A DNA stretch of 64,000 bases, from the NCBI RefSeq assembly GCF_016903815.1, contig NZ_CP069973.1; one strand, given 5' to 3'. Position 1 is the stretch's first letter, and the number at the start of each line of letters is the position of its first letter. Below are positions 2,761-38,037 of this stretch, in pieces. The notes below the pieces were generated by a model, which was given only the letters and a program-made list of their open reading frames with translations, was not told the DNA's origin and searched no databases. Position numbers and translations under genes: made by a program. The DNA is from Escherichia coli (GTDB lineage: Bacteria > Pseudomonadota > Gammaproteobacteria > Enterobacterales > Enterobacteriaceae).

Positions 2761-2770
2761 CATTTTTACC

Positions 2771-2806
2771 TGCCGGAGAAGGCATTCACGCCGCATCCGG
2801 CAACAT
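2771..2806. repeat. REP-like palindromic unit downstream of baeR
   Basis: The reverse complement reads GCCGGATGCGGCGTGAATGCC, the typical E. coli REP core. Confidence 0.4.
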
Positions 2807-2939
2807 AATCCCACGCATGGTCAGCAAACTGACATTATCTCTCCGCCCTGGCAGGCACCAGAAAATCGCTCATACTTTAATCGGTAAACAGTCCTTTTAG
2901 ATGCTGTTTTCGATACGCAATTTCAATCAAGGAGTCATT

Positions 2940-3272
2940 ATGGCTGGTTGGTTTGAACTCAGTAAAAGCAGTGATAATCAATTTCGGTTTGTGCTAAAAG
3001 CGGGCAATGGTGAGACTATCCTTACCAGCGAGCTGTATACCTCAAAAGCCTCTGCGGAAAAGGGCATCGCGTCGGTGCGTAGCAACAGCCCGCAAGAAGA
3101 ACGCTATGAGAAAAAAACGGCAAGCAACGGCAAATTCTATTTCAATCTGAAAGCCGCTAATCATCAAATTATCGGCTCCAGCCAGATGTACGCCACCGCG
3201 CAATCTCGTGAAACCGGAATTGCCTCCGTTAAAGCCAATGGCACAAGCCAGACGGTGAAAGACAATACGTAA
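2940..3272 (+). CDS. yegP: YegP (UPF0339/DUF1508 tandem-repeat protein)
   Basis: ATG at 2940 is preceded by AAGGAG. The 110-aa product 'MAGWFELSKSSDNQFRFVLKAGNGE...' has an internal repeat ('FRFVLKAGNGE' / 'FYFNLKAANHQ'). The track ORF starts 13 codons earlier, which is probably too far upstream. Confidence 0.88.
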   Translation: MAGWFELSKSSDNQFRFVLKAGNGETILTSELYTSKASAEKGIASVRSNSPQEERYEKKTASNGKFYFNLKAANHQIIGSSQMYATAQSRETGIASVKANGTSQTVKDNT

Positions 3273-3419
3273 TTACGATGCCGGGCGTGGGTTGTTGGCG
3301 TCCGGCGCTTTACCAGCTCCCCCCTACAGCGCTACAATGCCCGCCCTTAAAGTGGGGGCACTCCCCTGGCCGCTTCATCAGGTGAAGCGGATCTGACCTG
3401 TCATCAGAACGAGAGAATT

Positions 3420-4781
3420 ATGTTTAAACCGGAACTCCTTTCCCCGGCGGGAACGCTGAAAAATATGCGTTACGCTTTCGCTTATGGCGCAGATGCTGTT
3501 TATGCGGGCCAGCCGCGTTACTCCCTGCGTGTGCGCAACAACGAATTTAACCACGAAAATCTTCAGCTCGGCATCAATGAAGCCCACGCGCTGGGGAAAA
3601 AGTTTTATGTCGTGGTCAACATTGCACCGCACAACGCCAAGCTGAAAACCTTTATCCGTGACCTGAAACCGGTGGTGGAAATGGGGCCGGATGCGCTGAT
3701 TATGTCTGATCCAGGGCTGATTATGCTGGTGCGCGAGCACTTCCCTGAAATGCCGATCCATCTCTCAGTACAGGCTAACGCCGTGAACTGGGCGACGGTG
3801 AAATTCTGGCAGCAAATGGGTCTGACCCGCGTGATCCTCTCTCGCGAACTGTCACTGGAAGAGATTGAAGAGATCCGCAATCAGGTGCCAGATATGGAGA
3901 TCGAAATCTTCGTTCACGGCGCGCTGTGCATGGCCTACTCCGGTCGCTGCCTGCTCTCTGGCTATATCAACAAGCGCGACCCGAACCAGGGCACCTGCAC
4001 CAACGCCTGCCGCTGGGAGTATAACGTCCAGGAAGGGAAAGAAGATGACGTCGGCAACATCGTACACAAGTACGAACCGATTCCGGTGCAAAACGTTGAA
4101 CCGACGCTGGGGATCGGCGCACCAACCGACAAAGTGTTTATGATCGAAGAAGCCCAGCGTCCGGGCGAGTATATGACCGCGTTTGAAGATGAGCACGGCA
4201 CTTACATCATGAACTCGAAAGATCTGCGCGCCATCGCCCATGTTGAACGCCTGACCAAAATGGGCGTGCATTCGCTGAAAATCGAAGGCCGTACCAAATC
4301 TTTCTACTATTGCGCACGCACCGCGCAGGTTTACCGTAAAGCTATCGATGACGCAGCTGCGGGAAAACCATTCGATACCAGCCTGCTGGAAACCCTGGAA
4401 GGTCTGGCGCATCGTGGCTATACCGAAGGTTTCCTGCGTCGTCATACTCACGACGATTATCAGAACTACGAATACGGTTATTCAGTTTCTGACCGCCAGC
4501 AGTTTGTTGGTGAGTTTACCAGTGAGCGCAAGGGCGACCTCGCGGCGGTAGCGGTGAAAAATAAATTCTCCGTTGGCGACAGCCTTGAGCTGATGACGCC
4601 GCAAGGGAACATTAACTTTACCCTTGAGCACATGGAAAACGCCAAAGGCGAAGCAATGCCGGTCGCACCGGGCGATGGTTATACTGTGTGGATCCCGGTG
4701 CCGCAGGATCTTGAGCTAAATTACGCGCTGCTGATGCGTAATTTCTCCGGGGAAACCACGCGTAACCCCCACGGTAAGTGA
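3420..4781 (+). CDS. yegQ: U32-family peptidase-like protein YegQ (TrhP)
   Basis: 453 aa. N-terminus 'MFKPELLSPAGTLKNMRYAFAYGADAVYAG' is typical of the U32 family. Synteny with yegP. Confidence 0.93.
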   Translation: MFKPELLSPAGTLKNMRYAFAYGADAVYAGQPRYSLRVRNNEFNHENLQLGINEAHALGKKFYVVVNIAPHNAKLKTFIRDLKPVVEMGPDALIMSDPGLIMLVREHFPEMPIHLSVQANAVNWATVKFWQQMGLTRVILSRELSLEEIEEIRNQVPDMEIEIFVHGALCMAYSGRCLLSGYINKRDPNQGTCTNACRWEYNVQEGKEDDVGNIVHKYEPIPVQNVEPTLGIGAPTDKVFMIEEAQRPGEYMTAFEDEHGTYIMNSKDLRAIAHVERLTKMGVHSLKIEGRTKSFYYCARTAQVYRKAIDDAAAGKPFDTSLLETLEGLAHRGYTEGFLRRHTHDDYQNYEYGYSVSDRQQFVGEFTSERKGDLAAVAVKNKFSVGDSLELMTPQGNINFTLEHMENAKGEAMPVAPGDGYTVWIPVPQDLELNYALLMRNFSGETTRNPHGK

Positions 4782-11985: not shown

Positions 11986-12579
11986 TCAATTATGTAAATC
12001 TTTTGTTTTATGTTCTTTAGCGTATTGTGACAACAAATGGCTATAGCGTTTAAGCAAAATATTAGAAAGATTAAGCTCATTCATGAAGTGTTCTTCTAAT
12101 AAGTAACCATCAATATCAACTTTAATATCATTACCACTTTTCATCTTCTGTAACGTAGATTTCACACGCTCCAGCAGGATGCTTTGCTCATGGTAATAGT
12201 CCATAAGAAGAGTAACATCCTCTTTATCAAGCTTACTTAATTCGCTGAAGTAGGATTTAAACACTTTATCAGTCTGGTTTAATGCAATCTGTAAGCGAGG
12301 CCCCCCTAATGATTTGACATTAATGGCAAAAGGCTCGCCAACAAAATGCTCCGAATTTTCGTCAAAGCCAATATATCTCGTTTTATCAAGAAAAGTGAGA
12401 GCGCGATGGTTATTAGCGATTTCATATGCAAACATTGTTCTGATACTGTCCCTCTCAGCCTCCATGCTTATATCATCACGGTGATTTGTATAAAATATAT
12501 TTCCAACAAAGAGAACCATAGCAAGAATCACTGAACTTGCCTCCCAGTTAATATTTTTAAATCGTCGCTTAGTAAACAT
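11986..12579 (-). CDS. Unknown membrane-anchored protein, cargo at the P2 Z/fun position
   Basis: 197 aa. ATG is preceded by AAGGTG. One N-terminal hydrophobic helix ('SSVILAMVLFVGNIFY'); the rest is soluble and Lys/Glu-rich. AT-rich (22 G+C in 12121-12180). I recognise no family. Confidence 0.7.
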   Translation of the reverse strand: MFTKRRFKNINWEASSVILAMVLFVGNIFYTNHRDDISMEAERDSIRTMFAYEIANNHRALTFLDKTRYIGFDENSEHFVGEPFAINVKSLGGPRLQIALNQTDKVFKSYFSELSKLDKEDVTLLMDYYHEQSILLERVKSTLQKMKSGNDIKVDIDGYLLEEHFMNELNLSNILLKRYSHLLSQYAKEHKTKDLHN

Positions 12580-17145: not shown

Positions 17146-17771
17146 AAAGGACTCCCGGTTGTGCCGCCGCTGTCGCCGGGGTGTTTGTGGGTATGCAGTA
17201 CCTTACCGTTTGATGAGAGTTCACCGCCGGTGTGTTCAATGTTGCCGCGCATCGTCCCGCCCTTCTGCACTTCCAGCGTGCCGGTAGTCAGTTTGTTAGT
17301 GCAGACCACTTCTGGTGTGTCCAGGGTGACGCGGGTTGATGCTTTCACCGTGACCACTGGTACCGTGGCAGTAACAGAATCAGAAGCCGTCACGCTGGCC
17401 GTTTTAATTCCGCTTACCGTGAGTGCACTGGTTTCAGGTTCATACTCAATCACCGCCCCGTCAGGGAAACGGATATGCAGGGCATCCGCCGACGCAGACG
17501 GCGCAGGGTTATCGCCGGAATAAATCCCCGGCAGAACGAACGCCGTGTCGAGTTCACCGCCCACGGCCAGAATCAGCACCTGTTCCCCCACGGAAGGTGC
17601 CCACCATGTGCGCGAACGCCCAGCGCGATGGGTCAGCCACTGAAGCCAGTCGGTGCACATGCCGCCAGTCTGCACACGGCAGCGACCGGCATTAAGGTCG
17701 GTTTCGACGATAATGCCAGTGCGAATCATATTGCGTATAAAGCGAAGAATTTCATTGTATTGTGCATTCAT
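17142..17771 (-). CDS. V: Baseplate central spike protein V
   Basis: 209 aa from 'MNAQYNEILRFIRNMIRTGIIVETDLNAGRCRVQTGG...', P2 gpV-like. The track ORF has a 26-codon upstream extension that I reject. Confidence 0.88.
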   Translation of the reverse strand: MNAQYNEILRFIRNMIRTGIIVETDLNAGRCRVQTGGMCTDWLQWLTHRAGRSRTWWAPSVGEQVLILAVGGELDTAFVLPGIYSGDNPAPSASADALHIRFPDGAVIEYEPETSALTVSGIKTASVTASDSVTATVPVVTVKASTRVTLDTPEVVCTNKLTTGTLEVQKGGTMRGNIEHTGGELSSNGKVLHTHKHPGDSGGTTGSPL

Positions 17772-17795
17772 TCGATAATAATGATTCTGTACAAT
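17767..17795 (+). promoter_or_regulatory. Candidate sigma70 promoter for the orf30-position cargo gene
   Basis: TTCATT-N17-TACAAT, about 60 nt upstream of the ATG at 17858. Pattern match only. Confidence 0.3.
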
Positions 17796-17857
17796 CTCGA
17801 AGTAAATCACACCACGATTTCTGGTGCACAGAACAACAAGGGACAACAAAATCCATT

Positions 17858-18931
17858 ATGAGTACTTACTTTTTCTCGTCAGAAACAATGAAAGAATTGT
17901 TCAAAGATTATCTGGTCTTTTTGAACACGCTGACTCCCAGCACAAACTTTGAATCAAACAGAAACAAAATAATTGCTCAAGCAATAAACTTCATTTCCGA
18001 AAACCCTGAAGATTGGGACAAAAAATCCCAGTACAACATTGCTATGATTGGCGACACCTTTAAAAGTTTCTTAAGAGAAAAGGGGGAAGATAACAACAGC
18101 ATCAACCTTATATTCACTTGCTTTTTTAGATTTATCATTGAACCAAGCATTCTCTCTCCGGAAATAGAGTCTCACTTTTCACCACTAAGAACCATCAAGG
18201 ATTTTGCTCTGTATAACTATAATGAATTCGATGAGCGGAGCAGAGCACAGATAGACTTTTCTCTTAGAGAACTGCCATTAGCAATGGTTAAAGAAGTTTT
18301 AAGCTCCAGCAATGTTGACACATATAAAAAATACATTGATAGTTTAAACGAAGGGCGTCAATTTTTCGAAAAGTGCGACTCCTTCTTAAAGGAGCAACAT
18401 GCCAAAATAGAGTCAATTAAAGAGTCATTAAAAGGGTATGAGGTCGCATTTAATTTTGTTGGATTGTTTGATGGCTTTAATTCACTTGGCAAAAAGAAAG
18501 AAAGTGAAATCATGCTATCAAGAATAATTCTTATCATCTTGGCTATAATCATTCCCTCCCCGCTGATATACTATGGAATGCATAAATTACCAACTCTCGA
18601 AACGACAAATGCTGCCACATATTTTATGTCAGCACTACCTTTTGCATCAGTTACATTGATTTTCATGTATTACTTTAGAGTTGTACTGATAAATCATATA
18701 TCGTTACGAACTCAGATTATGCAAATAGAACTCAGAAAGAGCCTTTGTCAGTTCATTCAGAGTTATAGCGACTATTCCTCAGAGATAAGGAAAAACAATC
18801 CGGAAGCGCTTTCAAAATTCGAAGACGTAGTATTTTCAAACATCATGCTATCCGATGATAAGATACCATCTACATTTGATGGCATTGAGCAAATAGCATC
18901 GTTAATCAATTCATTAAAAAATGGAAAGTAA
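17858..18931 (+). CDS. Unknown protein with two C-terminal TM helices, cargo at the P2 orf30 position (antisense to the late operon)
   Basis: 357 aa from ATG 17858 (the track ORF begins at an upstream GTG inside V). Hydrophobic helices 'IMLSRIILIILAIIIPSPLIYYGM' and 'AATYFMSALPFASVTLIFMYYFRVVLI'. AT-rich (20 G+C in 18421-18480). Has its own terminator. Confidence 0.75.
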   Translation: MSTYFFSSETMKELFKDYLVFLNTLTPSTNFESNRNKIIAQAINFISENPEDWDKKSQYNIAMIGDTFKSFLREKGEDNNSINLIFTCFFRFIIEPSILSPEIESHFSPLRTIKDFALYNYNEFDERSRAQIDFSLRELPLAMVKEVLSSSNVDTYKKYIDSLNEGRQFFEKCDSFLKEQHAKIESIKESLKGYEVAFNFVGLFDGFNSLGKKKESEIMLSRIILIILAIIIPSPLIYYGMHKLPTLETTNAATYFMSALPFASVTLIFMYYFRVVLINHISLRTQIMQIELRKSLCQFIQSYSDYSSEIRKNNPEALSKFEDVVFSNIMLSDDKIPSTFDGIEQIASLINSLKNGK

Positions 18932-25230: not shown

Positions 25231-25403
25231 TGTCAGGAGTCCTGAATAGTGATTAGAGGAGTCACATGTCGGCATCAGTTTCCCGACGATGCGCATCCTC
25301 CGCCATCAGTCCCGGATGGCTTATCACTGACACAACAGCACCTTAGCGAATCGCGGGGCGCGACTCAGTAGCCTTGCCGTGTATTCATCACGGCGAGGTA
25401 TTC

Positions 25404-27176
25404 ATGACCATCACCACAGACACCACTCTTTTACACGACCCGCGTCGTCAGGCGGCGCTGCTGTACTGGCAGGGGTTTTCCGTGCCGCAGATTGCCGCCA
25501 TGTTGCAGATGAAACGCCCGACGGTGCAGAGCTGGAAACAGCGCGACGGCTGGGACAGCGTTGCCCCCATCAGCCGTGTCGAAATGAGTCTGGAAGCGCG
25601 GCTGACCCAGCTCATCATCAAACCGCAGAAAACCGGCGGTGACTTCAAGGAAATTGACCTGCTGGGACGCCAGATTGAACGACTGGCACGGGTCAACCGT
25701 TACAGCCAGACCGGCAACGAGGCAGACCTTAATCCGAACGTCGCTAACCGCAACAAAGGCGGGCGGCGCAAACCGAAAAAGAATTTTTTCAGTGACGAGG
25801 CCATCGAAAAGCTGGAGCAGATTTTCTTTGAGCAGTCTTTCGACTATCAGTTGCACTGGTATCGCGCCGGGCTTGAGCACCGCATCCGCGATATCCTGAA
25901 ATCCCGCCAGATTGGCGCAACGTTTTATTTTTCCCGCGAGGCGCTGCTGCGCGCCCTGAAAACCGGTCATAACCAGATTTTTCTGTCGGCCAGTAAAACG
26001 CAGGCGTATGTGTTCCGCGAATACATCATCGCCTTTGCCCGGCTGGTTGACGTTGACCTGACCGGTGACCCGATTGTCCTGGGCAATAACGGCGCAAAAC
26101 TGATTTTTCTCGGCACCAACTCCAACACCGCACAGAGCCATAACGGCGACCTGTACGTCGACGAGATTTTCTGGATCCCGAATTTTCAGGTACTGCGTAA
26201 GGTGGCATCAGGTATGGCCTCACAGAGTCACCTGCGCTCGACCTATTTCTCCACCCCGTCCACGCTGGCGCACGACGCCTACCCGTTCTGGTCGGGTGAA
26301 CTGTTCAACCGGGGACGCGCCAGCGCCGCCGAACGCGTGGAAATCGACGTCAGTCATAACGCCCTTGCCGGTGGGCTTCTCTGTGCGGACGGCCAGTGGC
26401 GACAGATTGTCACCATTGAGGACGCCCTGAAAGGCGGCTGCACGCTGTTCGACATTGAGCAGCTCAAACGCGAAAACAGCGCCGACGATTTTAAAAACCT
26501 GTTCATGTGTGAATTTGTTGACGACAAGGCATCGGTGTTCCCGTTCGAGGAGCTGCAACGCTGCATGGTCGACACGCTGGAAGAATGGGAAGACTATGCA
26601 CCGTTTGCCGCCAATCCGTTCGGCTCCCGCCCGGTATGGATTGGTTACGACCCGTCACACCGTGGCGACAGCGCCGGATGCGTGGTGCTGGCACCGCCGG
26701 TGGTGGCCGGTGGCAAATTCAGAATACTTGAGCGTCACCAGTGGAAAGGCATGGACTTTGCCACCCAGGCTGAATCCATCCGCAAACTCACCGAAAAATA
26801 CAACGTCGAATACATCGGAATTGATGCCACCGGCCTCGGTGTCGGCGTGTTCCAGCTCGTGCGCTCGTTCTATCCCGCCGCGCGCGACATCCGCTACACG
26901 CCGGAAATGAAAACCGCAATGGTGCTCAAGGCCAAAGACGTTATCCGCCGTGGCTGTCTGGAATATGACGTCAGCGCCACCGACATCACCAGCTCGTTTA
27001 TGGCTATCCGCAAGACCATGACCAGCAGCGGACGCAGTGCCACCTATGAAGCCAGCCGCAGCGAGGAAGCCAGCCACGCCGACCTCGCCTGGGCGACCAT
27101 GCACGCCCTGTTAAATGAGCCACTCACCGCCGGTATCAGCACCCCGCTGACATCCACCATTCTGGAGTTTTACTGA
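25404..27176 (+). CDS. P: Terminase large (ATPase) subunit P
   Basis: 590 aa from 'MTITTDTTLLHDPRRQAALLYWQGFSVPQIA...'. Divergent from O, as in P2. Confidence 0.94.
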   Translation: MTITTDTTLLHDPRRQAALLYWQGFSVPQIAAMLQMKRPTVQSWKQRDGWDSVAPISRVEMSLEARLTQLIIKPQKTGGDFKEIDLLGRQIERLARVNRYSQTGNEADLNPNVANRNKGGRRKPKKNFFSDEAIEKLEQIFFEQSFDYQLHWYRAGLEHRIRDILKSRQIGATFYFSREALLRALKTGHNQIFLSASKTQAYVFREYIIAFARLVDVDLTGDPIVLGNNGAKLIFLGTNSNTAQSHNGDLYVDEIFWIPNFQVLRKVASGMASQSHLRSTYFSTPSTLAHDAYPFWSGELFNRGRASAAERVEIDVSHNALAGGLLCADGQWRQIVTIEDALKGGCTLFDIEQLKRENSADDFKNLFMCEFVDDKASVFPFEELQRCMVDTLEEWEDYAPFAANPFGSRPVWIGYDPSHRGDSAGCVVLAPPVVAGGKFRILERHQWKGMDFATQAESIRKLTEKYNVEYIGIDATGLGVGVFQLVRSFYPAARDIRYTPEMKTAMVLKAKDVIRRGCLEYDVSATDITSSFMAIRKTMTSSGRSATYEASRSEEASHADLAWATMHALLNEPLTAGISTPLTSTILEFY

Positions 27177-28210
27177 TGAGCAAGAAAAAAGGGAAAACAC
27201 CGCAACCTGCGGCAAAAACAATGACCGCCAGCGCCCCGAAAATGGAGGCATTCACCTTTGGTGAGCCGGTGCCGGTACTCGACCGCCGTGACATTCTGGA
27301 TTACGTTGAGTGCATCAGTAACGGCAGATGGTATGAGCCACCGGTCAGCTTTACCGGTCTGGCAAAAAGCCTGCGTGCTGCCGTGCATCACAGCTCACCG
27401 ATTTACGTCAAACGTAATATTCTGGCCTCGACATTTATCCCGCATCCGTGGCTTTCCCAGCAGGATTTCAGCCGCTTTGTGCTGGATTTTCTGGTGTTCG
27501 GTAATGCATTTCTGGAAAAGCGTTACAGCACCACCGGTAAGGTCATCAGACTGGAAATCTCACCGGCAAAATATACCCGCCGTGGCGTGGAGGAGGATGT
27601 TTACTGGTGGGTGCCGTCCTTCAACGAGCCGACAGCCTTCGCGCCCGGTTCCGTGTTTCACCTGCTGGAGCCGGATATTAATCAGGAGCTGTACGGCCTG
27701 CCGGAATATCTCAGCGCCCTTAACTCTGCCTGGCTGAATGAGTCGGCCACGCTGTTCCGCCGCAAGTATTACGAAAACGGCGCTCATGCCGGATACATCA
27801 TGTACGTCACTGATGCCGTGCAGGATCGCAACGATATCGAAATGCTTCGCGAAAACATGGTTAAGTCGAAAGGCCGCAATAACTTTAAAAATCTGTTTCT
27901 CTATGCCCCGCAGGGGAAAGCCGACGGCATTAAAATTATCCCGCTCAGTGAAGTGGCGACGAAGGACGATTTTTTTAATATCAAAAAAGCCAGCGCCGCA
28001 GACCTGCTGGACGCGCACCGCATCCCCTTTCAGTTGATGGGCGGCAAGCCGGAGAACGTCGGGTCGCTGGGTGATATTGAGAAAGTGGCAAAGGTCTTTG
28101 TCCGCAATGAGCTTATCCCGCTACAGGACAGGATCCGCGAGATAAACGGCTGGCTCGGTCAGGAGGTCATCCGCTTTAAAAACTACTCACTGGACACTGA
28201 CAACGACTGA
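27176..28210 (+). CDS. Q: Portal protein Q
   Basis: 344 aa. Start overlaps the P stop. P2 gpQ. Confidence 0.94.
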   Translation: MSKKKGKTPQPAAKTMTASAPKMEAFTFGEPVPVLDRRDILDYVECISNGRWYEPPVSFTGLAKSLRAAVHHSSPIYVKRNILASTFIPHPWLSQQDFSRFVLDFLVFGNAFLEKRYSTTGKVIRLEISPAKYTRRGVEEDVYWWVPSFNEPTAFAPGSVFHLLEPDINQELYGLPEYLSALNSAWLNESATLFRRKYYENGAHAGYIMYVTDAVQDRNDIEMLRENMVKSKGRNNFKNLFLYAPQGKADGIKIIPLSEVATKDDFFNIKKASAADLLDAHRIPFQLMGGKPENVGSLGDIEKVAKVFVRNELIPLQDRIREINGWLGQEVIRFKNYSLDTDND

Positions 28211-28398: not shown

Positions 28399-28596
28399 CG
28401 CCCGCTTCATGAGACGGTTTTGATGCAGTCGCATTTGTCTTGAAAACCAAGTAACTAGACGGCTATCAGTCATAGACAGGCAGCTTTTTTTTTCATACAT
28501 TTTGTATGCAAAATCATGCACGCCTAATCAAGACGAATCTTCGTTCACAGCCATTATGCATGAATGCGAAAATTACTGTTCGAAAAAGGATAATTT

Positions 28597-30021
28597 ATGG
28601 TTTCGTCAAACGTCAAAATAGCAGCATTTCCAGCAAAAAGATTCTTTGTTGAGATGCTCACCCGAGATATTGAGTTGTCTGACTCAATTCTAGATTTACT
28701 AGATAACTGCCTAGATGGTGTATTAAGAAAAAACAATTTCACTCCAGAGCAAACCTTCGGTAAATCAGACGTTTACAAGGGTTACTATGCTCATATTGAA
28801 TTTGATGAGAATAGTTTCAGAATAACTGATAATTGCGGAGGTATTCCAGCAAAACTTGCGGAAAGCTATGCGTTTAGGTTGGGTAGACCTGCAGAACGTG
28901 AGGCGGATGATCTCCCGACAATTGGTGTATATGGTATCGGAATGAAACGAGCGATTTTCAAAATGGGGACATCTGCTCAGATTTTAAGCAAAACTGAAAA
29001 CGAACAATTTTCAGTTACCATTTCTCCTGAATGGATGGCTGATGATGAAAACTGGTCTTTGGAGTTAGAGCGAAATAATGTTGACTTAAACGAAACAGGC
29101 GTCAGCATCCAAATTAACAATTTAAGGAAAGATATTAAAGCATCCCTATCAAAGGATCGTGGCTTTGAAGAAGTTTTGATTAATATCATAGCAAATCATT
29201 ATAGTTTAATCATTAAAAAAGGGTTTGAGGTTAAAGTAAATGGATGTATTGTTAAGCCAAATAGCACCAATTTAATATTTGATGAAGAAGCCATTAAAGG
29301 CAATACCGACGGCATTGCTCCTTATGTATATAAAAATAATTCAAATGGAGTTTCAATTAAAGTTGCAGTTGGATTTTATCGTAACTTGCCTAGTGAGGAA
29401 GAAGAAGAGAATTTATTATCAGGCCGTTCCACAACAGAAAAAGCTGGTTGGACAATTATATGCAATGATCGTGTAGTCCTACATGCGGATAAAACCAAGC
29501 TTACAGGTTGGGGAGAAGCTGGAGTTCCACAATATCATACTCAATTCATCGGAATTTCTGGTGTTGTTATTTTCACATCATCAAATGCTGAATTACTACC
29601 TATCACTACAACTAAACGAGGTGTTGATGGTAACTCTGAGCTATATCTTTCTACTAAAGATTTTATGCGCGAGGGTTTAAAATTCTTCACGGACTTTACC
29701 AACAAATGGAAAAGTAACGCAGAGGAAAGAAAGCAAATTATTAATACTGCATCCAATATGGTTTCAACAACTGAGGTCGACTTTACTAAATCAATTCCTA
29801 GAGAAAACTGGTCGAACGTTCGACGTTCAATAGGAGGAGAAGTTTTCAAACCGAAGCTACCAATGCCTCGGGATTCGGATCCATTACGTCAGATAAAATT
29901 TAGCCGTAGACATAGTGAAATAAAACTGGTGTCAGAGTTTCTCTTTGATGATGCAACTCAACCACCAACAGAGGTTGGTCAATATTGTTTTGATGAATTT
30001 CTAAAAAAGGCTAAACAATGA
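28597..30021 (+). CDS. GHKL-superfamily (MORC/MutL-like, HATPase_c_3-type) ATPase, cargo gene 1
   Basis: 474 aa. ATG is preceded by AAGGA. Bergerat-fold motifs occur in order: N-box 'ILDLLDNCLDG', G1 'RITDNCGGIP', G2 'IGVYGIGMKRAIFKMG'. The C-terminal ~330 aa is unassigned. AT-rich. Confidence 0.8.
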   Translation: MVSSNVKIAAFPAKRFFVEMLTRDIELSDSILDLLDNCLDGVLRKNNFTPEQTFGKSDVYKGYYAHIEFDENSFRITDNCGGIPAKLAESYAFRLGRPAEREADDLPTIGVYGIGMKRAIFKMGTSAQILSKTENEQFSVTISPEWMADDENWSLELERNNVDLNETGVSIQINNLRKDIKASLSKDRGFEEVLINIIANHYSLIIKKGFEVKVNGCIVKPNSTNLIFDEEAIKGNTDGIAPYVYKNNSNGVSIKVAVGFYRNLPSEEEEENLLSGRSTTEKAGWTIICNDRVVLHADKTKLTGWGEAGVPQYHTQFIGISGVVIFTSSNAELLPITTTKRGVDGNSELYLSTKDFMREGLKFFTDFTNKWKSNAEERKQIINTASNMVSTTEVDFTKSIPRENWSNVRRSIGGEVFKPKLPMPRDSDPLRQIKFSRRHSEIKLVSEFLFDDATQPPTEVGQYCFDEFLKKAKQ

Positions 30022-31010
30022 GTACTGGCGGAAGCATCCCATATCATTTGCGGCAAAACAAAGCCATTGAAAGGAATCTATTTATAGAATCCCTAAGAAG
30101 GTTAAACAATTATACAAACATATCCGAATATGTATATATAGGATTCGGGGGGCCTTTCCTCGAAGATTTCAAACAAATTCATAATTTGTTAAAAGTGACT
30201 AAAATGATATCTATCGAAGGAGATAAAAATGTCCATTGCCGACAACAGTTTAACAAACCATTATCTTGCATAAATTTGGGTGATACCCCAGAAATGAGCG
30301 GAGACTTCATCAATCGCTATAACTTTGACGATAAAACGATCATATGGTTAGATTATGCAACGCCTTCAGACTTAAATGCTCAGTTAAATGAAATAGTTAA
30401 TTTGGTTACAAAGCTAAAACCCAAAGACATTTTTAAGATCACTTTAAATGCAAACCCTGAAGCCTTGGGAAAAAACCCGAGCGAACGAGATCCAAGAGCA
30501 TATAGATTTCAAAAGATAAACGATATTTTGACTCAAGATTTTTTACCACCGAATGCAGTAGTCGAAGATGTCGGATTTAAAAAATACCCTATGCTCCTAG
30601 TTAATGCTATGAGACGCGCAATAGGGCATGGATTAAAAGGTCGAAATGACATAAGAATACATCCATTAACTTCTTTCGTTTATAAAGATGGCCAACAGAT
30701 GGTTACTTTAACAGCTATCGTTCTTGAAAACACTGATACAGAAGAAGCTAAATTTATTGATAATTCCAGAATCAAGAATTGGCCATTTTATGATGGGAAG
30801 TGGAGTAATCCTAAAAATATAAACGTCCCTGCTATGTCTTTAAAAGAAAGGATACATATTGAATCTTTATTACCCGAAGCTTCAGTAGAAAACATCCATG
30901 AAACTCTAGGGTTTTACATTGGCTCCACTCCTTCTGGAGCCAACTCCGATCTAAGTAATTTTATCGAATACTACAAGGTCGTTCCATGGTATTCAAAGAT
31001 TCTTTTTTAA
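30018..31010 (+). CDS. Unknown 330-aa partner protein, translationally coupled to the GHKL ATPase, cargo gene 2
   Basis: ATGA start/stop overlap at 30018-30021. Glycine-rich 'VYIGFGGPF', then 'ISIEGD' and 'IIWLDYATP', loosely Rossmann/methyltransferase-fold-like. I see no nuclease motif. Confidence 0.7.
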   Translation: MSTGGSIPYHLRQNKAIERNLFIESLRRLNNYTNISEYVYIGFGGPFLEDFKQIHNLLKVTKMISIEGDKNVHCRQQFNKPLSCINLGDTPEMSGDFINRYNFDDKTIIWLDYATPSDLNAQLNEIVNLVTKLKPKDIFKITLNANPEALGKNPSERDPRAYRFQKINDILTQDFLPPNAVVEDVGFKKYPMLLVNAMRRAIGHGLKGRNDIRIHPLTSFVYKDGQQMVTLTAIVLENTDTEEAKFIDNSRIKNWPFYDGKWSNPKNINVPAMSLKERIHIESLLPEASVENIHETLGFYIGSTPSGANSDLSNFIEYYKVVPWYSKILF

Positions 31011-32112
31011 CTTTTAAACAGTAATCGTATAAAGGTAATAGCATAGCCTCAGCCACAAGCGGACTAACGCTATTACCTATCTGTCTAAAACTGTGCCACT
31101 TTGTAGGATGAAAACGGAACCAATCAGGAAACCCTTGTAACCTAGCTGCTTCACGAGGAGTTATCACCCTAGCTTGAGTAGGGTGAATTGGCCTAACGGC
31201 CTGATAACTCCCCTTGTCACTTCCTGTACCTGCTCTCAAAGTTGGACAAAAACCGTTAGGATTGAGTCGTTGTGATCTCGAAATCTTATCAGTTTCACCG
31301 AATGAAAGTTGTCTATATCTCCTGAGCACTTCCTCCGAATGAGCTGTACCTAAAAAGCCAGATACCAATCCTTTCTTTAAATTTTGAATGGATTCTGCAT
31401 CACCTACACCATTTGGTATATGTCCCCAAAGTCGCTCATAATAGTAACCATCTTTATCCATTTTTACTGAACGCCAGCCTTGCTCCTCTGTCTGCCACTC
31501 TTTTCTTATAGTTCGCGGTAATCCGTAGAGTGCATCTTTGACAAGAGTCTGCTCTATTATATTTTTAGGAAAAAAATCAGATTCTTTTAACTGATTAATA
31601 AAACCTCTTTTAAAACCCATGAAAAATATTCGTGTCCGTGTCGTAGGTGCTCCATAATTTGAAGCATTAACCCTTATTGGATGTAATAAACAATAGCCAT
31701 CTCTAACTAAAGAAAATGCTTCTTCTCTTACTGGATTATATTTCTCACCCATAATTCCTGGAACATTCTCTGCCAAAAAACAAATTGGAGATAACTCACT
31801 TACCAACCTAAAAAAATGAATATACAATTCATTTCTTGTATCATTGGCATTCCTTTTTCCAATGGTGCTAAATCCTTGGCAAGGTGGACCACCAATAACG
31901 CAATCAATGTCCTTTACAGCACATGCAGACAAAATATCTTTTGCTGTAAGCGAGCAGACATCCCGATGCAAATGTGTTGATTTTGGGAAGTTTAACTCAT
32001 GTGAAAAAATAGCATGTTTATCCAGTTCAACAGCTCCAACCAAGTTGAAACCGGCTCGAGTTGCCCCTAAGCTTAAACCGCCAACTCCAGAGAATAAATC
32101 AACTACATTCAT
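30961..32112 (-). CDS. C5 cytosine-specific DNA methyltransferase, cargo gene 3
   Basis: 383 aa from ATG 32112 (the track ORF begins at a TTG two codons upstream). Motifs I 'DLFSGVGGLS', IV 'GGPPCQGFS', VI 'ENVPG', VIII 'TRTRIFF', X 'QIGNSVSP'. A long variable region lies between VIII and IX. Confidence 0.9.
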   Translation of the reverse strand: MNVVDLFSGVGGLSLGATRAGFNLVGAVELDKHAIFSHELNFPKSTHLHRDVCSLTAKDILSACAVKDIDCVIGGPPCQGFSTIGKRNANDTRNELYIHFFRLVSELSPICFLAENVPGIMGEKYNPVREEAFSLVRDGYCLLHPIRVNASNYGAPTTRTRIFFMGFKRGFINQLKESDFFPKNIIEQTLVKDALYGLPRTIRKEWQTEEQGWRSVKMDKDGYYYERLWGHIPNGVGDAESIQNLKKGLVSGFLGTAHSEEVLRRYRQLSFGETDKISRSQRLNPNGFCPTLRAGTGSDKGSYQAVRPIHPTQARVITPREAARLQGFPDWFRFHPTKWHSFRQIGNSVSPLVAEAMLLPLYDYCLKVKKESLNTMERPCSIR

Positions 32113-32152
32113 ATTCAAATAACCATGCTAAAGATTCAACTAACGATCATGT

Positions 32153-32180
32153 ATTCTATCATGACATCAGTCATTGTCTA
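32153..32180 (-). promoter_or_regulatory. Candidate sigma70 promoter for the C5 methyltransferase, overlapping a small palindrome
   Basis: Minus strand TAGACA-N16-TAGAAT, about 35-40 nt upstream of the ATG. The spacer contains ATGACTGATGTCAT (inverted ATGAC/GTCAT). Pattern match only. Confidence 0.35.
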
Positions 32181-32394: not shown

Positions 32395-34458
32395 CTAGCC
32401 ACTTATCTTCTCTTGCCGAGTAAACATTGGCAAATAATGCTTTAATGTGTTTCTAAACACTCTGACGACCTCTGGGTCACTCCATTCGATAACACCGTCA
32501 TCAACCAGATTAAGCACTGCTGCGGCGTGCTCAGAAGGTGTGGGAGCCGGTAACGAAGTATCACCACCAGTGAGCTTTCCACAGTTATTGACAGGACTCC
32601 GAGGCGCGGCGATGCCGCTTTTTAAAGTCAAAGGCTCAACGACCGGAACTTTCGGCACAATGCGCCAGTCCGTCGTTCTGGTGATATGAATATGACGCGC
32701 GCCGAGATGCGGCGCGTAAATGCCGACCACTCTCTCGACTTCTTCCTCGTACTCGTTAACGTCATCCGACGGGCTACGGGCAACCCTGACAGTCTGACAA
32801 TCGCGCGGGACATTTGCCCCACCCTGCGCGCTGATATACAACGCAAAATCACCACTGTCTGCGGCAGCGCGAGCAGCCTCGACGCGTTCGTCAAACTCAT
32901 CAGCAATACTGACGCCGCGAGGCAATTTGCGTAGTTCACGGTAAGCCCCCATTGTCGGCAGTCCAACCGTTTTAAATTGCGGGATGCGCCACGTTGACGC
33001 CCATGCAGTAACAGCCGCGGCAGTATCTTTCAGAGGTCTGCCGGTATCGTTATCGAGCTGACCATCCAGTGCATAGCCGTCGATGTTTTTTGAGATGTAT
33101 TTCGCGATATACCCCGCAGCACCGCCCCGGTTAAGGTGTTTTGCCTGAAAACGGTTTCGCGCGGCTCCTCTTTCGTCGCCATCCTCTTTGAGCGCATAGC
33201 GACGCATGATTTCGATAATCTGGTTACGCTGGCGCGGATTACAAAAAAGCATCATATGCCAGTGCGGCGTTCCGTCGTGGTGTGGCTCGACGACACGCAA
33301 ACCGTAGACCTGTAAATCATTATCCTTGAATGCCGTGCGCATCAGGCTCCAGATACGGCAGAGATAACGCTGCGCATCCTTTGGATTAAATGCCTCATCG
33401 TTCCAGCCGTGATTTAGCTGGACGGTTTTACTTTCGCCTTTTCTGACCTGACGTGTCGGGTGATACTTTGACGGCGCGGTCAGCGTGATAAACATCCCCA
33501 CATCACCCTCTGCTGCGGCGTAACGCTCAATACCGGCAATGGTGTTCATCAGCTCCATCCGGCGAATTTCAGGATTAGAAATACTGCCCATCACCTTACT
33601 GATAAGGTCGATGCGCTCGCCGGTTTCCCTGTTTTCGAGATCACACGATTTAAGAAATTCCAGATTTGCCTGGCGGCGTGCACGCACATCACGAATGGCA
33701 TGTTTACTGGCATAAGGAGAACGGTCTTTATTGACCTCCCCGACAGCAATCAGTAACGCCTCATGCCAGCGCATACGCTGGCCTTTAAGCTGATGAGTCC
33801 ACCACTCATCGTTAAACAGACGGGCAATGGCAGAATATGCCTGCCTCGTGGTCATCTGCCCTTTACGGTATTTTTTCCAGTAGAGAGGGGATATATTGAA
33901 AGCACGTGCAGCGCCAGCAACATGACCATAGAGGTGAGCCTGCGCCTCATCCGTAAACAGCGATTCTTTTTCGCCATGCGCATCCACCCAGGCATCGCTG
34001 AGTTCCTCATACATCATGAAAAGCTGCGATGAGATACGGGCAGCAAACTTTTTCAGCTCCTTGTCATTCATTCCCGGCAGGCGCGCATAGTGGTCACGCT
34101 CTGCCAGAAACAGTAACGACGCGTCGGTGTTCATTTCATGGCGCTGATTCACACGCTCAATGCGCGGCCATAAACGGCGCTGAAAAGTGGATGTGAGGAA
34201 ATAAAACCCGTGCACCGGGCTTTTATTGCGCCGGATGTAGTCATAGCGTGAAGTAAACAGCGAACGCAAAAAGTAAGGCAGGCGGTTAATCGTGGATAAA
34301 ACACCTTGCACCTGACGCATCTCGTCACGTGTAAGGGGTCTTTCGCGCCCGACAGCCTCGCGTGGCGCGCTCCATGCATAAGCACCGGTAAACGTCTTAC
34401 CGGTGCCTGCAGCAAATGCTGACGGAGGGACAAAACGCCCGGAGGCTTTAATGGCCAT
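32395..34458 (-). CDS. A: Rolling-circle replication initiator endonuclease A
   Basis: 687 aa from 'MAIKASGRFVPPSAFAAGTGK...'. Conserved 'HHDGTPHWHMMLF' and 'YIAKYISKN' (HUH / active-Tyr motifs). The C-terminus is shorter and different from P2 A as I recall it. Confidence 0.92.
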   Translation of the reverse strand: MAIKASGRFVPPSAFAAGTGKTFTGAYAWSAPREAVGRERPLTRDEMRQVQGVLSTINRLPYFLRSLFTSRYDYIRRNKSPVHGFYFLTSTFQRRLWPRIERVNQRHEMNTDASLLFLAERDHYARLPGMNDKELKKFAARISSQLFMMYEELSDAWVDAHGEKESLFTDEAQAHLYGHVAGAARAFNISPLYWKKYRKGQMTTRQAYSAIARLFNDEWWTHQLKGQRMRWHEALLIAVGEVNKDRSPYASKHAIRDVRARRQANLEFLKSCDLENRETGERIDLISKVMGSISNPEIRRMELMNTIAGIERYAAAEGDVGMFITLTAPSKYHPTRQVRKGESKTVQLNHGWNDEAFNPKDAQRYLCRIWSLMRTAFKDNDLQVYGLRVVEPHHDGTPHWHMMLFCNPRQRNQIIEIMRRYALKEDGDERGAARNRFQAKHLNRGGAAGYIAKYISKNIDGYALDGQLDNDTGRPLKDTAAAVTAWASTWRIPQFKTVGLPTMGAYRELRKLPRGVSIADEFDERVEAARAAADSGDFALYISAQGGANVPRDCQTVRVARSPSDDVNEYEEEVERVVGIYAPHLGARHIHITRTTDWRIVPKVPVVEPLTLKSGIAAPRSPVNNCGKLTGGDTSLPAPTPSEHAAAVLNLVDDGVIEWSDPEVVRVFRNTLKHYLPMFTRQEKISG

Positions 34459-34723
34459 ATGAGCCAAAAGCCTCTGAACAACGCTTGCTGAGTTGCTCAA
34501 CCTGCGCGTTTAAATCAGCAAAAGACTTTGCGCTTCCGGTCAGAATATCGTGATGCATCAGGCCGGAAACGAGCTGGCTTAATTTCGGGTAATAACCAAC
34601 CACCGCCAGCCACTCCTGACCGGCGTTTTTACCGCTTTCCGCTCTCTTTTTCTCATGGAGAATAAACTGAAAGCTGTCACTGGTAACGACATAACGTTCG
34701 CCAATTTCTATACGAATGCTCAT
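34448..34723 (-). CDS. P2 early-operon small protein (orf83-like)
   Basis: 91 aa, immediately upstream of A in the early operon. Function unknown. Confidence 0.7.
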   Translation of the reverse strand: MSIRIEIGERYVVTSDSFQFILHEKKRAESGKNAGQEWLAVVGYYPKLSQLVSGLMHHDILTGSAKSFADLNAQVEQLSKRCSEAFGSYGH

Positions 34724-37023: not shown

Positions 37024-38037
37024 ATGGCAATCAAAAAACTCGATGATGGTCGATATGAAGTGGACATTCGCCCTACTGGACGTAACGGAAAACGCATCCG
37101 TAGGAAGTTTGATAAGAAAAGCGAAGCTGTCGCTTTCGAAAAATACACGTTGTACAACCACCACAATAAAGAATGGCTATCAAAACCAACAGACAAACGA
37201 CGTCTGTCGGAACTGACACAGATCTGGTGGGATTTAAAGGGTAAACACGAAGAGCATGGGAAATCTAATCTTGGAAAAATTGAAATCTTCACAAAAATAA
37301 CGAATGACCCATGCGCATTTCAAATCACGAAATCCCTTATCAGCCAGTACTGCGCCACCCGAAGAAGTCAGGGTATTAAACCTTCGAGTATCAATCGTGA
37401 TTTAACATGTATTAGCGGCATGTTTACAGCCCTGATTGAAGCGGAGTTATTCTTTGGTGAGCACCCTATCAGAGGGACAAAGAGGCTTAAGGAGGAAAAA
37501 CCAGAAACAGGCTATCTCACACAGGAAGAAATTGCCTTACTGCTTGCAGCACTTGACGGCGACAATAAAAAGATTGCGATTCTTTGCCTGAGTACAGGAG
37601 CACGTTGGGGAGAAGCAGCTCGTTTGAAAGCAGAAAATATCATCCATAACCGCGTCACGTTTGTTAAAACGAAAACAAACAAACCACGCACCGTCCCGAT
37701 CTCAGAGGCTGTTGCCAAAATGATCGCGGATAACAAACGAGGTTTTTTATTCCCTGATGCTGATTACCCTCGCTTCAGACGAACAATGAAAGCAATAAAA
37801 CCGGATTTGCCAACGGGGCAAGCCACACATGCACTAAGGCACAGCTTTGCCACTCATTTCATGATTAATGGAGGAAGTATTATCACGCTACAACGGATAC
37901 TAGGTCACACGCGGATTGAGCAAACTATGGTTTACGCTCATTTTGCGCCAGAGTACCTTCAGGACGCCATTTCTCTTAATCCGCTAAGAGGTGGTACTGA
38001 AGCCGAGAGTGTCCACACAGTGTCCACAGTAGAGTAA
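37024..38037 (+). CDS. int: Tyrosine integrase
   Basis: 337 aa. Catalytic-region motifs 'TGARWGEA', 'HALRHSFATHF', 'LGHTRIEQTMVYAH'. Adjacent to att. Confidence 0.95.
   Translation: MAIKKLDDGRYEVDIRPTGRNGKRIRRKFDKKSEAVAFEKYTLYNHHNKEWLSKPTDKRRLSELTQIWWDLKGKHEEHGKSNLGKIEIFTKITNDPCAFQITKSLISQYCATRRSQGIKPSSINRDLTCISGMFTALIEAELFFGEHPIRGTKRLKEEKPETGYLTQEEIALLLAALDGDNKKIAILCLSTGARWGEAARLKAENIIHNRVTFVKTKTNKPRTVPISEAVAKMIADNKRGFLFPDADYPRFRRTMKAIKPDLPTGQATHALRHSFATHFMINGGSIITLQRILGHTRIEQTMVYAHFAPEYLQDAISLNPLRGGTEAESVHTVSTVE
38010..38028. promoter_or_regulatory. Candidate Int arm-type sites (TGTCCACA x2, 11-bp spacing)
   Basis: Exact 8-mer direct repeat one helical turn apart, within the last codons of int. 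Matches the pattern at 4993-5011. Confidence 0.4.

What the first reader, a model, noticed from the sequence alone, without database searches (positions are those of the whole stretch)
30018..31010. The 330-aa partner may be a degenerate Rossmann/methyltransferase-fold protein rather than a nuclease
Seen: the sequence contains, in order, a hydrophobic strand plus glycine-rich loop 'YVYIGFGGPFLEDF', a strand ending in acidic residues 'MISIEGD', 'INLGDTPEM', and 'IIWLDYATP'. This order resembles motifs I, II, III and IV of class-I SAM-dependent methyltransferases. The motif-IV-like element is reminiscent of the DPxY-type motif of RlmJ/TcmP-like enzymes, but it is not canonical.

Inference (weak): the effector partner of the GHKL ATPase could be a nucleotide- or SAM-binding sensor or a second modification enzyme. 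That would make the cassette unlike a classical restriction system.
Basis: inference. Interest (0 to 1): 0.5.

Follow-up and report, generated by a model that had tools for sequence, protein, structure and literature searches.

The report
Methyltransferase-fold partner of a MORC-like ATPase
The 330-residue protein has a well-conserved SAM-methyltransferase fold, not a nuclease fold; databases already call it "O-methyltransferase", but its invariable pairing with a MORC-like ATPase in cytosine-methylase and DISARM loci points to an untested, nuclease-free, probably defensive module.

Summary

The fold is not degenerate. The glycine loop, E67 and W110-x-D112-Y113 are 87-100% conserved in 79 homologues down to 26% identity. 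The quoted motif III is not conserved. No specific link to RlmJ or TcmP was found.

The context is the new part. In 79 of 80 loci from many phyla the gene directly follows a MORC-like GHKL ATPase, with a median 4-base overlap. A cytosine-5 methylase lies nearby in 66 of 80, and Vsr in 28. The same trio sits in P2 prophages, Tn7 elements and a Pf phage. A strongly conserved clade is embedded in nine-gene class-1 DISARM operons.

No nuclease is present in the E. coli cassette. The pair has no PADLOC model, and I found no paper on it.

Most likely it is the SAM-dependent subunit of an ATP-driven, 5mC-linked defence module. Its substrate and mechanism are unknown.

The parts
28544..28573 (+). Promoter-like site (TTCACA-18-GAAAAT, TG extension) 24 nt upstream of the GHKL start; possible promoter of the ghkl-mt35 operon
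   Evidence: Consensus scan only. The number of sites in the region is not above the shuffle expectation (17 vs 12.7+/-3.3).
28597..30021 (+). MORC-like GHKL ATPase (474 aa), obligate upstream partner. Its stop overlaps the next start (ATGA).
30018..31010 (+). PF20553 (Methyltransf_35) protein, 330 aa: class-I SAM-methyltransferase fold (about residues 1-240) plus a helical C-terminal domain (about 250-330)
30042..30074 (+). N-terminal conserved motif Y9-H-L-R12-x-N14-K15-A-x-x-R19, ahead of beta1
   Evidence: Y9, N14, K15 and R19 are 100% conserved; H10, L11 and R12 98%. In the DISARM clade H10 is R. Role not tested.
30129..30170 (+). Motif I: beta1 plus the glycine-rich loop (Y40-I-G42-F-G44-G45-P) and E49-D50
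30204..30224 (+). Motif II: end of beta2 with acidic E67 (98% conserved). This position binds the SAM ribose in class-I methyltransferases (established knowledge).
30339..30365 (+). Motif IV: end of beta4, W110-L-D112-Y113 (W and D 100%, Y 87%); non-canonical, not DPPY
30961..32118 (-). DNA cytosine-5 methyltransferase (385 aa), convergent; its 3' end overlaps the PF20553 gene by 50 bp
   Evidence: PF00145 E 1.7e-59 and TIGR00675 E 2.5e-51. PDB 3g7u_A E 3.8e-155. A Dcm lies in 66 of 80 related loci.
32153..32180 (-). Promoter-like site (TAGACA-16-TAGAAT, TG extension, 10 of 12) upstream of the Dcm start
   Evidence: Consensus scan only.
28597..32118 (.). Low-GC cargo cassette (37.1% GC against 55% and 53% in the flanks) between the P2 portal gene and replication gene A. 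This is the tin/old accessory position of P2 (established knowledge).
   Evidence: A 65%-identical variant of the trio sits at the same place in other P2-like prophages.

Best explanation
The ORF encodes a true member of Pfam PF20553. It is a class-I SAM-dependent methyltransferase-fold protein with an apparently intact cofactor site, and it is translationally coupled to a MORC-like GHKL ATPase.

The two proteins most likely form one complex. This pair is a conserved mobile module that travels with a DNA cytosine-5 methylase, often with Vsr, and in one clade sits inside class-1 DISARM operons.

Proposed mechanism (inferred): Dcm marks resident DNA with 5mC. The MORC-like ATPase acts as an ATP-driven DNA clamp or sensor. 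The PF20553 subunit supplies SAM-dependent chemistry or SAM-dependent substrate recognition on nucleic acid. The outcome is nuclease-free interference with DNA that lacks the mark.

Shown here: the fold, motif conservation, gene coupling and context. Inferred: complex formation, SAM binding (about 0.75), catalytic activity (about 0.55), a defence role (about 0.6). The substrate is unknown, and 'O-' in the database name has no evidence behind it.

For: Intact site: G42, G44, G45, E67, W110, D112 and Y113 are 87-100% conserved over 79 sequences and are kept in the DISARM clade, the Pf phage and an archaeal locus.

Coupling: the GHKL gene is directly upstream in 79 of 80 loci, with a median 4-base overlap. 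Pairwise identities of the two proteins correlate, r = 0.78.

5mC link: Dcm in 66 of 80 loci and Vsr in 28. In all four DISARM-clade operons with upstream sequence (Microvirga, Rhizobium, Laribacter, Archangium) the order is Dcm-Vsr-DrmD-DrmMI-GHKL-PF20553-DrmA-DrmB-DrmC.

Defence and mobile context: P2 accessory locus, Tn7 cargo, the left end of Pf phage PfAC20, DISARM.

The GHKL gene is split into two ORFs in L010, L043 and L092 while Dcm (L010, L043) and the PF20553 gene stay whole. This is what restriction-modification logic predicts.

MORC and paraMORC ATPases in restriction-modification-like operons with Dcm and Vsr were predicted by Iyer et al. 2008 (PMC2292703).
Against: There is no biochemical or genetic test of this family in the literature I could search. 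PADLOC has no model for either protein.

The nearest solved structures share only about 10% identity, so the substrate class cannot be read off. Motif III is not conserved and motif IV is non-canonical.

Without a nuclease the 'restriction' step has no identified effector.

Eight cyanobacterial and Parabeggiatoa loci have the pair with no Dcm within 7 kb.

Dcm partners belong to different clades: 26% identity between the window's Dcm and the DISARM-clade Dcm. The pair therefore cannot be tuned to one recognition sequence.

The GHKL protein has Asp where the catalytic Glu normally sits, so ATP turnover may be slow.
Confidence: 0.55

Rival explanations
1. Second modification enzyme. PF20553 is an active DNA methyltransferase, helped by the ATPase, that adds a further protective mark. 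The cassette would then be a dual-modification, anti-restriction module carried for the benefit of the mobile element, not a defence system.
For: The catalytic-type motifs are conserved. Structural neighbours include base N-methyltransferases with a D/N-P-P-aromatic motif: Trm1, RsmD-like proteins, RlmJ, TrmN, METTL16. No nuclease is present. The cassette is carried by phages and transposons.
Against: A modification-only enzyme has no obvious need for an obligate MORC-like ATPase. The pair is embedded between DrmMI and DrmA in DISARM operons that already have two methylases. No target-recognition domain was identified. The P2 locus typically holds defence genes (Rousset 2022, PMC9122126).
Confidence: 0.18
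2. SAM-sensing or regulatory pseudoenzyme. The fold binds SAM or SAH but does not transfer methyl. It gates the ATPase, for example as a guard against phage enzymes that destroy SAM, or as an allosteric cofactor site like that of Type I and III restriction enzymes.
For: The binding motifs I and II are conserved. The pair is tied to methylation-based systems, which phage SAM-degrading enzymes attack (established knowledge).
Against: Many invariant residues lie outside the usual cofactor contacts: Y9, R12, N14, K15, R19, R75, Q76, D112, Y113, Y222, D224, E277. That looks like a substrate site. No precedent was found.
Confidence: 0.17
3. RNA-directed effector. Once the ATPase is triggered, PF20553 methylates tRNA or rRNA and stalls translation (abortive infection). 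This would parallel paraMORC ATPases fused to HEPN RNase domains.
For: The best structural matches are tRNA and rRNA methyltransferases: Trm1, RsmD-like proteins, RlmI, RlmO, RlmJ. A paralogous GHKL protein next to Dcm in 10 loci carries a different C-terminal domain. In L023 it has an RNPKAH motif, which I read, from my own knowledge, as a HEPN-type Rx4-6H signature. Such paraMORC-HEPN fusions were proposed as PrrC-like RNases (PMC3710099).
Confidence: 0.1
4. Repair helper. The MutL-like ATPase and its partner assist very-short-patch repair of T:G mismatches created by 5mC deamination. That would lower the mutational cost of a mobile Dcm.
For: Vsr occurs in 28 of 80 loci and an HhH-GPD glycosylase in 5. 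MutL stimulates Vsr in E. coli (established knowledge; the parallel is noted in PMC2292703).
Against: Most loci, including this window, have no vsr. The pair occurs without Dcm in cyanobacteria. Embedding in DISARM is unexplained. A methyltransferase fold has no role in VSP repair.
Confidence: 0.07
5. Cryptic nuclease: the 330-aa protein or the C-terminus of the ATPase cuts DNA through an unrecognised active site.
For: Restriction-modification logic needs an effector. There are extra invariant polar motifs in the ATPase (CNDR 289-292, YHxQF 313-317) and in PF20553 (D224, E277, R278).
Confidence: 0.04

Closest known systems
Pfam PF20553, Methyltransf_35 ('Putative O-methyltransferase'); the RefSeq product name 'O-methyltransferase'
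   Same: Full-length match far above the curated cut-off. The identical protein carries this name in 45 complete E. coli genomes.
   Different: The family name is a prediction. I found no paper that mentions the family, and nothing supports O- rather than N- or C-methylation.
Class-I SAM methyltransferases acting on RNA bases: Trm1 (3axt/3axs), RsmD-like Rv2966c and HI0767, RlmI/RlmO, RlmJ (6qe5, 2oo3)
   Different: About 10% identity and no sequence-level relationship. Motif IV is W-[LF]-D-[YF] instead of D/N-P-P-aromatic. It has its own N-terminal motif and C-terminal domain, and it always pairs with a GHKL ATPase.
Prokaryotic MORC/paraMORC restriction-modification-like operons (Iyer, Abhiman and Aravind 2008, PMC2292703)
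   Same: A GHKL+S5 ATPase encoded with a cytosine methylase and Vsr on mobile DNA.
   Different: The partners listed there, in the passages read, are helicases and nucleases (restriction-endonuclease fold, HNH, PLD). Here the invariable partner has a methyltransferase fold and the minimal cassette has no nuclease.
Class-1 DISARM (DrmD, DrmMI, DrmA, DrmB, DrmC, with or without DrmMII)
   Same: A large clade of the pair (at least 76% identical across proteobacterial classes and Myxococcota) sits between DrmMI and DrmA, with Dcm-Vsr at the head of the operon.
   Different: The studied Serratia class-1 system has six genes and no such pair (bioRxiv 10.1101/2021.12.28.474362). The window has no DrmA, DrmB, DrmC or DrmD.
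paraMORC-HEPN fusions (Anantharaman et al. 2013, PMC3710099)
   Same: A paralogous GHKL core (E about 1e-50 over residues 20-400) lies next to the same Dcm genes in 10 loci.
   Different: In those proteins the extra module is a fused C-terminal helical domain. It shows no similarity to PF20553.
BREX and Type III restriction-modification (work-alike comparison only)
   Same: Self-marking by methylation, an ATPase, and a methyltransferase-fold subunit inside the interference machinery. BREX has no known DNA cleavage (established knowledge).
   Different: No homology was tested or claimed. In those systems the same methylase both marks and recognises DNA, whereas here Dcm is a separate protein.

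Membership tests
Pfam PF20553 (Methyltransf_35) | Whole-protein HMM score above the curated gathering threshold (27 bits), full-length match | tested here: met
   286.1 bits, E 4.6e-85, residues 3-328 against profile 2-307 of 309. All listed homologues carry PF20553.
Class-I SAM-dependent methyltransferase fold | Seven-stranded Rossmann-like sheet ending in a beta6-beta7 hairpin; structural similarity to solved members | tested here: met
Class-I SAM-dependent methyltransferase fold | Glycine-rich motif I after beta1 and an acidic residue at the end of beta2 (cofactor binding) | tested here: met
   G42 92%, G44 and G45 96%, E67 98% over 79 sequences.
Class-I SAM-dependent methyltransferase fold | SAM binding and methyl transfer | not testable with these tools
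   Needs ITC or thermal shift and activity assays.
O-methyltransferase (the database name) | Methylation of an oxygen atom of a defined substrate | not testable with these tools
   No substrate is known. O-methyltransferases are not enriched among the best structural matches.
RlmJ family (23S rRNA m6A2030) | Match to the RlmJ family model or sequence | tested here: not met
RlmJ family (23S rRNA m6A2030) | DPPY motif IV | tested here: not met
   RlmJ has LILIDPPYE. This family has W-[LF]-D-[YF]-x-x-x, and P116 is not conserved.
TcmP (three-Cys-motif partner protein, which I recall as NCBIfam TIGR04474) | Match to the NCBIfam model | tested here: not met
   No such match at E<=1.
Restriction endonuclease or other nuclease | A recognisable nuclease fold or family (PD-(D/E)xK, HNH, PLD, GIY-YIG, TOPRIM) | tested here: not met
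Classical Type II restriction-modification system | A methylase plus a cognate endonuclease | tested here: not met
   The methylase is present. No endonuclease lies in the 3.5-kb cassette.
MORC/paraMORC restriction-modification-like systems (Iyer 2008) | A GHKL+S5 ATPase with an intact ATP site, encoded with a DNA methylase (often Dcm, Vsr) on mobile DNA | tested here: met
DISARM class 1 | Core genes drmA, drmB, drmC with drmD and drmMI | tested here: not met
   Absent from the window. Present around homologues of the pair elsewhere.
Known anti-phage systems in PADLOC-DB v2.0.0 | HMM match of the component proteins | tested here: not met
   No families for the ATPase or for PF20553. Only the Dcm matches methylase models.

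The most novel reading that the evidence does not exclude
The methyltransferase-fold protein is itself the immune effector. A MORC-like clamp detects DNA that lacks the Dcm mark and directs SAM-dependent methylation, either of the invader's DNA at replication-blocking positions or of host RNA. This would be a restriction-like system that works by methylation instead of cleavage. The same two-gene module would have been recruited as a sub-module of class-1 DISARM.
Probability: 0.15. Interest if true: 0.85.

Novelty: new variant of a known kind. Interest (0 to 1): 0.5.

Why it matters
The fold assignment alone adds nothing new, because Pfam and RefSeq already have it.

What matters is the pattern behind it. 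A two-gene module, a MORC-like ATPase plus a methyltransferase-fold protein, is spread over many bacterial phyla and at least one archaeal MAG. There are about 2,000 clusters at 50% identity.

It almost always sits with a cytosine-5 methylase. It rides on P2 prophages, Tn7 elements and a Pf phage. It is built into a widespread nine-gene DISARM variant.

No nuclease accompanies it in the minimal cassette. It is missing from the defence-system model set I could query, and no study of it turned up.

If it defends, it would be another methylation-keyed, nuclease-free system, like BREX and DISARM, whose mechanisms remain open questions. It would also give a tractable bacterial model for how MORC ATPases work together with DNA methylation, a pairing also seen in eukaryotic silencing. 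The E. coli P2 cassette is only 3.5 kb and easy to clone.

Tried and rejected
- PDB sequence searches with the protein and with a 35-sequence profile found nothing meaningful (best E 0.44).
- NCBIfam and PADLOC gave no match for the 330-aa protein or the ATPase. PHROGs gave only 'unknown function' families, phrog_19983 and phrog_20521.
- The RlmJ/TcmP lead: hhalign against E. coli RlmJ and RsmJ gave probability below 1%, so it was rejected as a specific relationship.
[quoted passage not shown] An HMM search found no similarity, so this was rejected.
- CapK/CapS (GHKL kinase plus STAS repressor, PMC13373217), Ambrosia (methylase, HATPase, REC and HNH; bioRxiv 10.1101/2025.09.30.679545), ARMADA (PMC13463889), the V. 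cholerae Shedu-type paraMORC3 (PMC12137116) and the YprA survey (bioRxiv 10.1101/2025.09.15.676423) all have different architectures. None of the text searches in them found this pair.
- The main text of Rousset 2022 on P2 hotspots has no mention of a methyltransferase or GHKL. Its supplementary tables were not read.
- The afdb50 fold library was unavailable.
- A nucleotide search of the phage collection found nothing. A protein search found one distant homologue, in PfAC20.
- The 1.84-billion-protein profile search showed only stand-alone proteins of about 320-350 aa among the best 150, so no informative fusions.
Full report
**Setting**

The window carries a P2-like prophage. It has a terminase at 25374-27176, a portal gene at 27176-28210, replication gene A at 32395-34500 (- strand) and an integrase at 37024-38037.

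Between the portal gene and gene A lies a 3.5-kb cassette of 37.1% GC, against 55% and 53% in the flanks. In P2 itself this position holds the accessory genes tin and old (established knowledge). Rousset et al. 2022 describe the P2 accessory loci as hotspots of anti-phage systems (PMC9122126).

The cassette has three genes:
- a 474-aa GHKL ATPase at 28597-30021 (+);
- the 330-aa ORF of the finding at 30018-31010 (+), whose ATG overlaps the ATPase stop (ATGA);
- a convergent cytosine-5 DNA methylase at 30961-32118 (-), whose 3' end overlaps the 330-aa ORF by 50 bp.

The identical cassette is in 45 of 5,426 complete E. coli genomes. There it is annotated 'ATP-binding protein | O-methyltransferase | DNA cytosine methyltransferase'.

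**The observation**

All four quoted strings are present at residues 38-51, 63-69, 85-93 and 108-116. The protein matches Pfam PF20553 (Methyltransf_35, 'Putative O-methyltransferase') end to end, with E 4.6e-85 and 286 bits against a cut-off of 27.

An AlphaFold2 model built on 35 homologues is confident, with pLDDT 91.4 and pTM 0.89. Its strands are at 39-42, 62-65, 85-86, 107-113, 138-144, 212-223 and 227-237. The four strings therefore sit exactly where motifs I to IV of a class-I methyltransferase belong.

**Is the fold degenerate?**

No. I took 79 homologues from one-genome-per-species loci, 26-100% identical to the window protein. The following positions are conserved:
- G42 92%, G44 and G45 96%, E49 97%, D50 98%;
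- E67 98%;
- W110 and D112 100%, Y113 87%.

Further conserved residues lie outside the classical cofactor contacts: Y9, H10, R12, N14, K15, R19, R75, Q76, T142, Y222, D224, P271 and E277.

These survive in the most distant members examined: the DISARM-linked clade, a filamentous Pseudomonas phage and an archaeal MAG. The exception is H10, which is R in the DISARM clade.

This pattern fits a working SAM site and a defined substrate pocket. It does not fit a decayed fold.

**The RlmJ/TcmP idea**

No RlmJ (Pfam) or TcmP (NCBIfam) match appeared at E<=1. hhalign of the family profile against E. coli RlmJ and RsmJ gives probability below 1%. Motif IV is W-[LF]-D-[YF], not DPPY.

By eye, RlmJ also has a Tyr/His-rich segment before beta1 (YRHSFHAGNHADVLKH). 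That is a resemblance, not a tested relationship.

**The partner**

Its ATP-site motifs are invariant in 65 of 65 sequences: D33-x3-N37-x2-D40-G41, D78-N-C-G-G, G110-x-x-G113-x-G115 and K340. An Asp sits four residues before the Mg-binding Asn, where GHKL enzymes normally have the catalytic Glu (positional inference). No nuclease domain was detected in it.

**Context**

In 80 loci (the window plus 79 species-level loci), the MORC-like gene lies directly upstream of the PF20553 gene in 79. The median overlap is 4 bases. Pairwise identities of the two proteins correlate, r = 0.78.

A Dcm gene lies in the locus in 66 of 80:
- 37 upstream in the same operon;
- 20 convergent, as in the window;
- 7 downstream on the same strand;
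- 2 in other arrangements.

Vsr is present in 28 loci. An HhH-GPD glycosylase is in 5, and two HNH-type gene clusters are in 6 and 4 loci; the four-locus cluster matches Pfam HNH_2, while the six-locus cluster has no Pfam match and is HNH-like only by eye.

No other gene is conserved, so the core is the pair plus Dcm. Of the 14 loci without Dcm, about five are cut by contig ends, one is a DISARM operon cut upstream, and eight are cyanobacterial or Parabeggiatoa loci where the pair stands alone.

The trio is carried by:
- P2-like prophages, including a 65%-identical variant at the same site;
- Tn7-like transposons in Vibrio cholerae and Aeromonas;
- a site next to gyrB, with Vsr, in Burkholderia;
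- the left end of filamentous phage PfAC20.

The ATPase gene is split into two ORFs in three loci (L010, L043, L092) while its neighbours stay intact. Restriction genes typically decay this way.

**A link to DISARM**

A protein search of plasmids led to Microvirga terrae pR24_2, where the pair lies between DrmMI and DrmA. A homology search seeded with that protein found 991 relatives. The best 120 are all at least 76% identical and almost all exactly 331 aa, from alpha- and betaproteobacteria and Myxococcota.

All four genomes with enough upstream sequence (Microvirga, Rhizobium, Laribacter, Archangium) show one nine-gene operon: Dcm-Vsr-DrmD-DrmMI-GHKL-PF20553-DrmA-DrmB-DrmC. Laribacter has an extra Mrr gene. 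Ralstonia has the same core, with an extra helicase gene, but is cut upstream. A Myxococcota MAG has a rearranged version.

The class-1 DISARM system studied experimentally, from Serratia, has six genes and no such pair (bioRxiv 10.1101/2021.12.28.474362).

The Dcm of this clade is only 26% identical to the window's Dcm. The ATPases are 36% identical over their full length. In contrast, most three-gene cassettes keep a Dcm 50-56% identical to the window's, even when PF20553 has drifted to 26-30%. The pair is therefore tied to 5mC methylases in general, not to one recognition sequence.

**A paralogous module**

In 10 loci a second GHKL protein lies beside Dcm. Nine of them, about 546-610 aa, share the core (E about 1e-50 over residues 20-400) but carry a different helical C-terminal domain; the tenth (L038) is homologous over its full length. 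In L023 that C-terminal domain has an RNPKAH motif, which I read as a HEPN-type Rx4-6H signature. Anantharaman et al. 2013 described HEPN domains fused to paraMORC ATPases in restriction-modification neighbourhoods and compared them to PrrC and RloC (PMC3710099). PF20553 thus occupies the slot that an effector domain occupies in the paralogue. This is an analogy, not proof.

**What it most likely is**

Shown here:
- a conserved class-I methyltransferase fold with intact cofactor-type motifs;
- obligate genetic coupling to a MORC-like ATPase;
- association with Dcm and Vsr and with DISARM;
- carriage on mobile elements, at sites where defence genes accumulate;
- absence of any recognisable nuclease.

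Inferred: the two proteins form a complex. Dcm marks self DNA. The ATPase acts on DNA as an ATP-driven clamp or sensor, as MORC proteins do. PF20553 contributes SAM-dependent catalysis or recognition.

My estimates are: fold 0.97, SAM binding about 0.75, catalytic activity about 0.55, defence role about 0.6. The substrate is open. The 'O-' in the database name has no evidence behind it.

Rivals are listed separately: a second protective methylase, a SAM sensor, an RNA-directed effector, a helper of VSP repair, and a cryptic nuclease.

**Novelty**

The system belongs to the MORC/paraMORC restriction-modification-like operons predicted in 2008 (PMC2292703). Neither the methyltransferase-fold partner nor the DISARM-embedded form appeared in any paper I could search. 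PADLOC v2 has no model for either protein, and PHROGs lists both as unknown.

I rate it a new variant of a known kind, of moderate interest. It is an easy and worthwhile target for experiment.

Noticed in passing
L103 (NZ_CP102847.1 86000-112000); also L098, L100-L102, L104-L105, L069: Nine-gene class-1 DISARM variant: (HTH)-Dcm-Vsr-DrmD-DrmMI-GHKL-PF20553-DrmA-DrmB-DrmC. It occurs in alpha- and betaproteobacteria and Myxococcota. Its PF20553 proteins are at least 76% identical and almost all 331 aa. I found it in no DISARM paper I could search.
   Followed up: partly
L096 (Pseudomonas phage PfAC20, PP058144.1) 280-3711: A filamentous Pf phage carries GHKL (280-1605), a PF20553 homologue (1605-2558, 27% identity) and a cytosine methylase (2587-3711) at its left end.
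   Followed up: partly
window 28597-30021: The MORC-like ATPase has an invariant Asp (D33) where GHKL ATPases normally have the catalytic Glu, four residues before the Mg-binding Asn (65 of 65 sequences). Extra invariant motifs, CNDR 289-292, TGWG 303-306 and YHxQF 313-317, lie in or near a low-confidence loop of the transducer domain.
   Followed up: partly
L001:10256-12088; also L019, L023, L024, L026, L028, L034, L042, L046 (L038 is a tenth case, homologous over its full length): A second, larger GHKL paralogue (about 546-610 aa) lies next to the same Dcm. It has a distinct helical C-terminal domain. In L023 this has an RNPKAH motif, which I read as a HEPN-type signature; the domain is unassigned in the others.
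   Followed up: partly
L030 5613-12706: A Rhodoferax MAG has two GHKL-PF20553 pairs in opposite orientation flanking one Dcm and an HNH-like gene.
   Followed up: no
L032, L035, L036, L037, L039, L041, L053, L094: Cyanobacterial and Parabeggiatoa loci carry the pair with no Dcm within 7 kb. In Nostoc-type genomes it sits between large, mutually homologous membrane-protein genes that I take, by eye, to be NDH subunit genes.
   Followed up: no
L010, L043, L092: The GHKL gene is split into two ORFs while the PF20553 gene, and the Dcm in L010 and L043, remain intact. This is consistent with decay of a restriction-like component.
   Followed up: no
window 30961-31010: The 3' ends of the PF20553 gene and the convergent Dcm gene overlap by 50 bp. 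The same overlap is kept in the 65%-identical and the 82-84%-identical variant cassettes (L011-L016).
   Followed up: no
window 30961-32118: The Dcm is a close relative of the solved but functionally undescribed chain PDB 3g7u_A (E 3.8e-155 over residues 1-366). Its recognition sequence is unknown to me.
   Followed up: no
window 17762-18931 (+) and 11986-12579 (-): Two more prophage ORFs lie in low-GC patches and have no Pfam or PADLOC match. One is 389 aa (phrog_9373, unknown function) on the strand opposite to the neighbouring - strand ORFs of this prophage region. The other is 197 aa (phrog_3829, unknown function) between the tail-sheath and tail-fibre-assembly genes, the Z/fun accessory position of P2.
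   Followed up: partly
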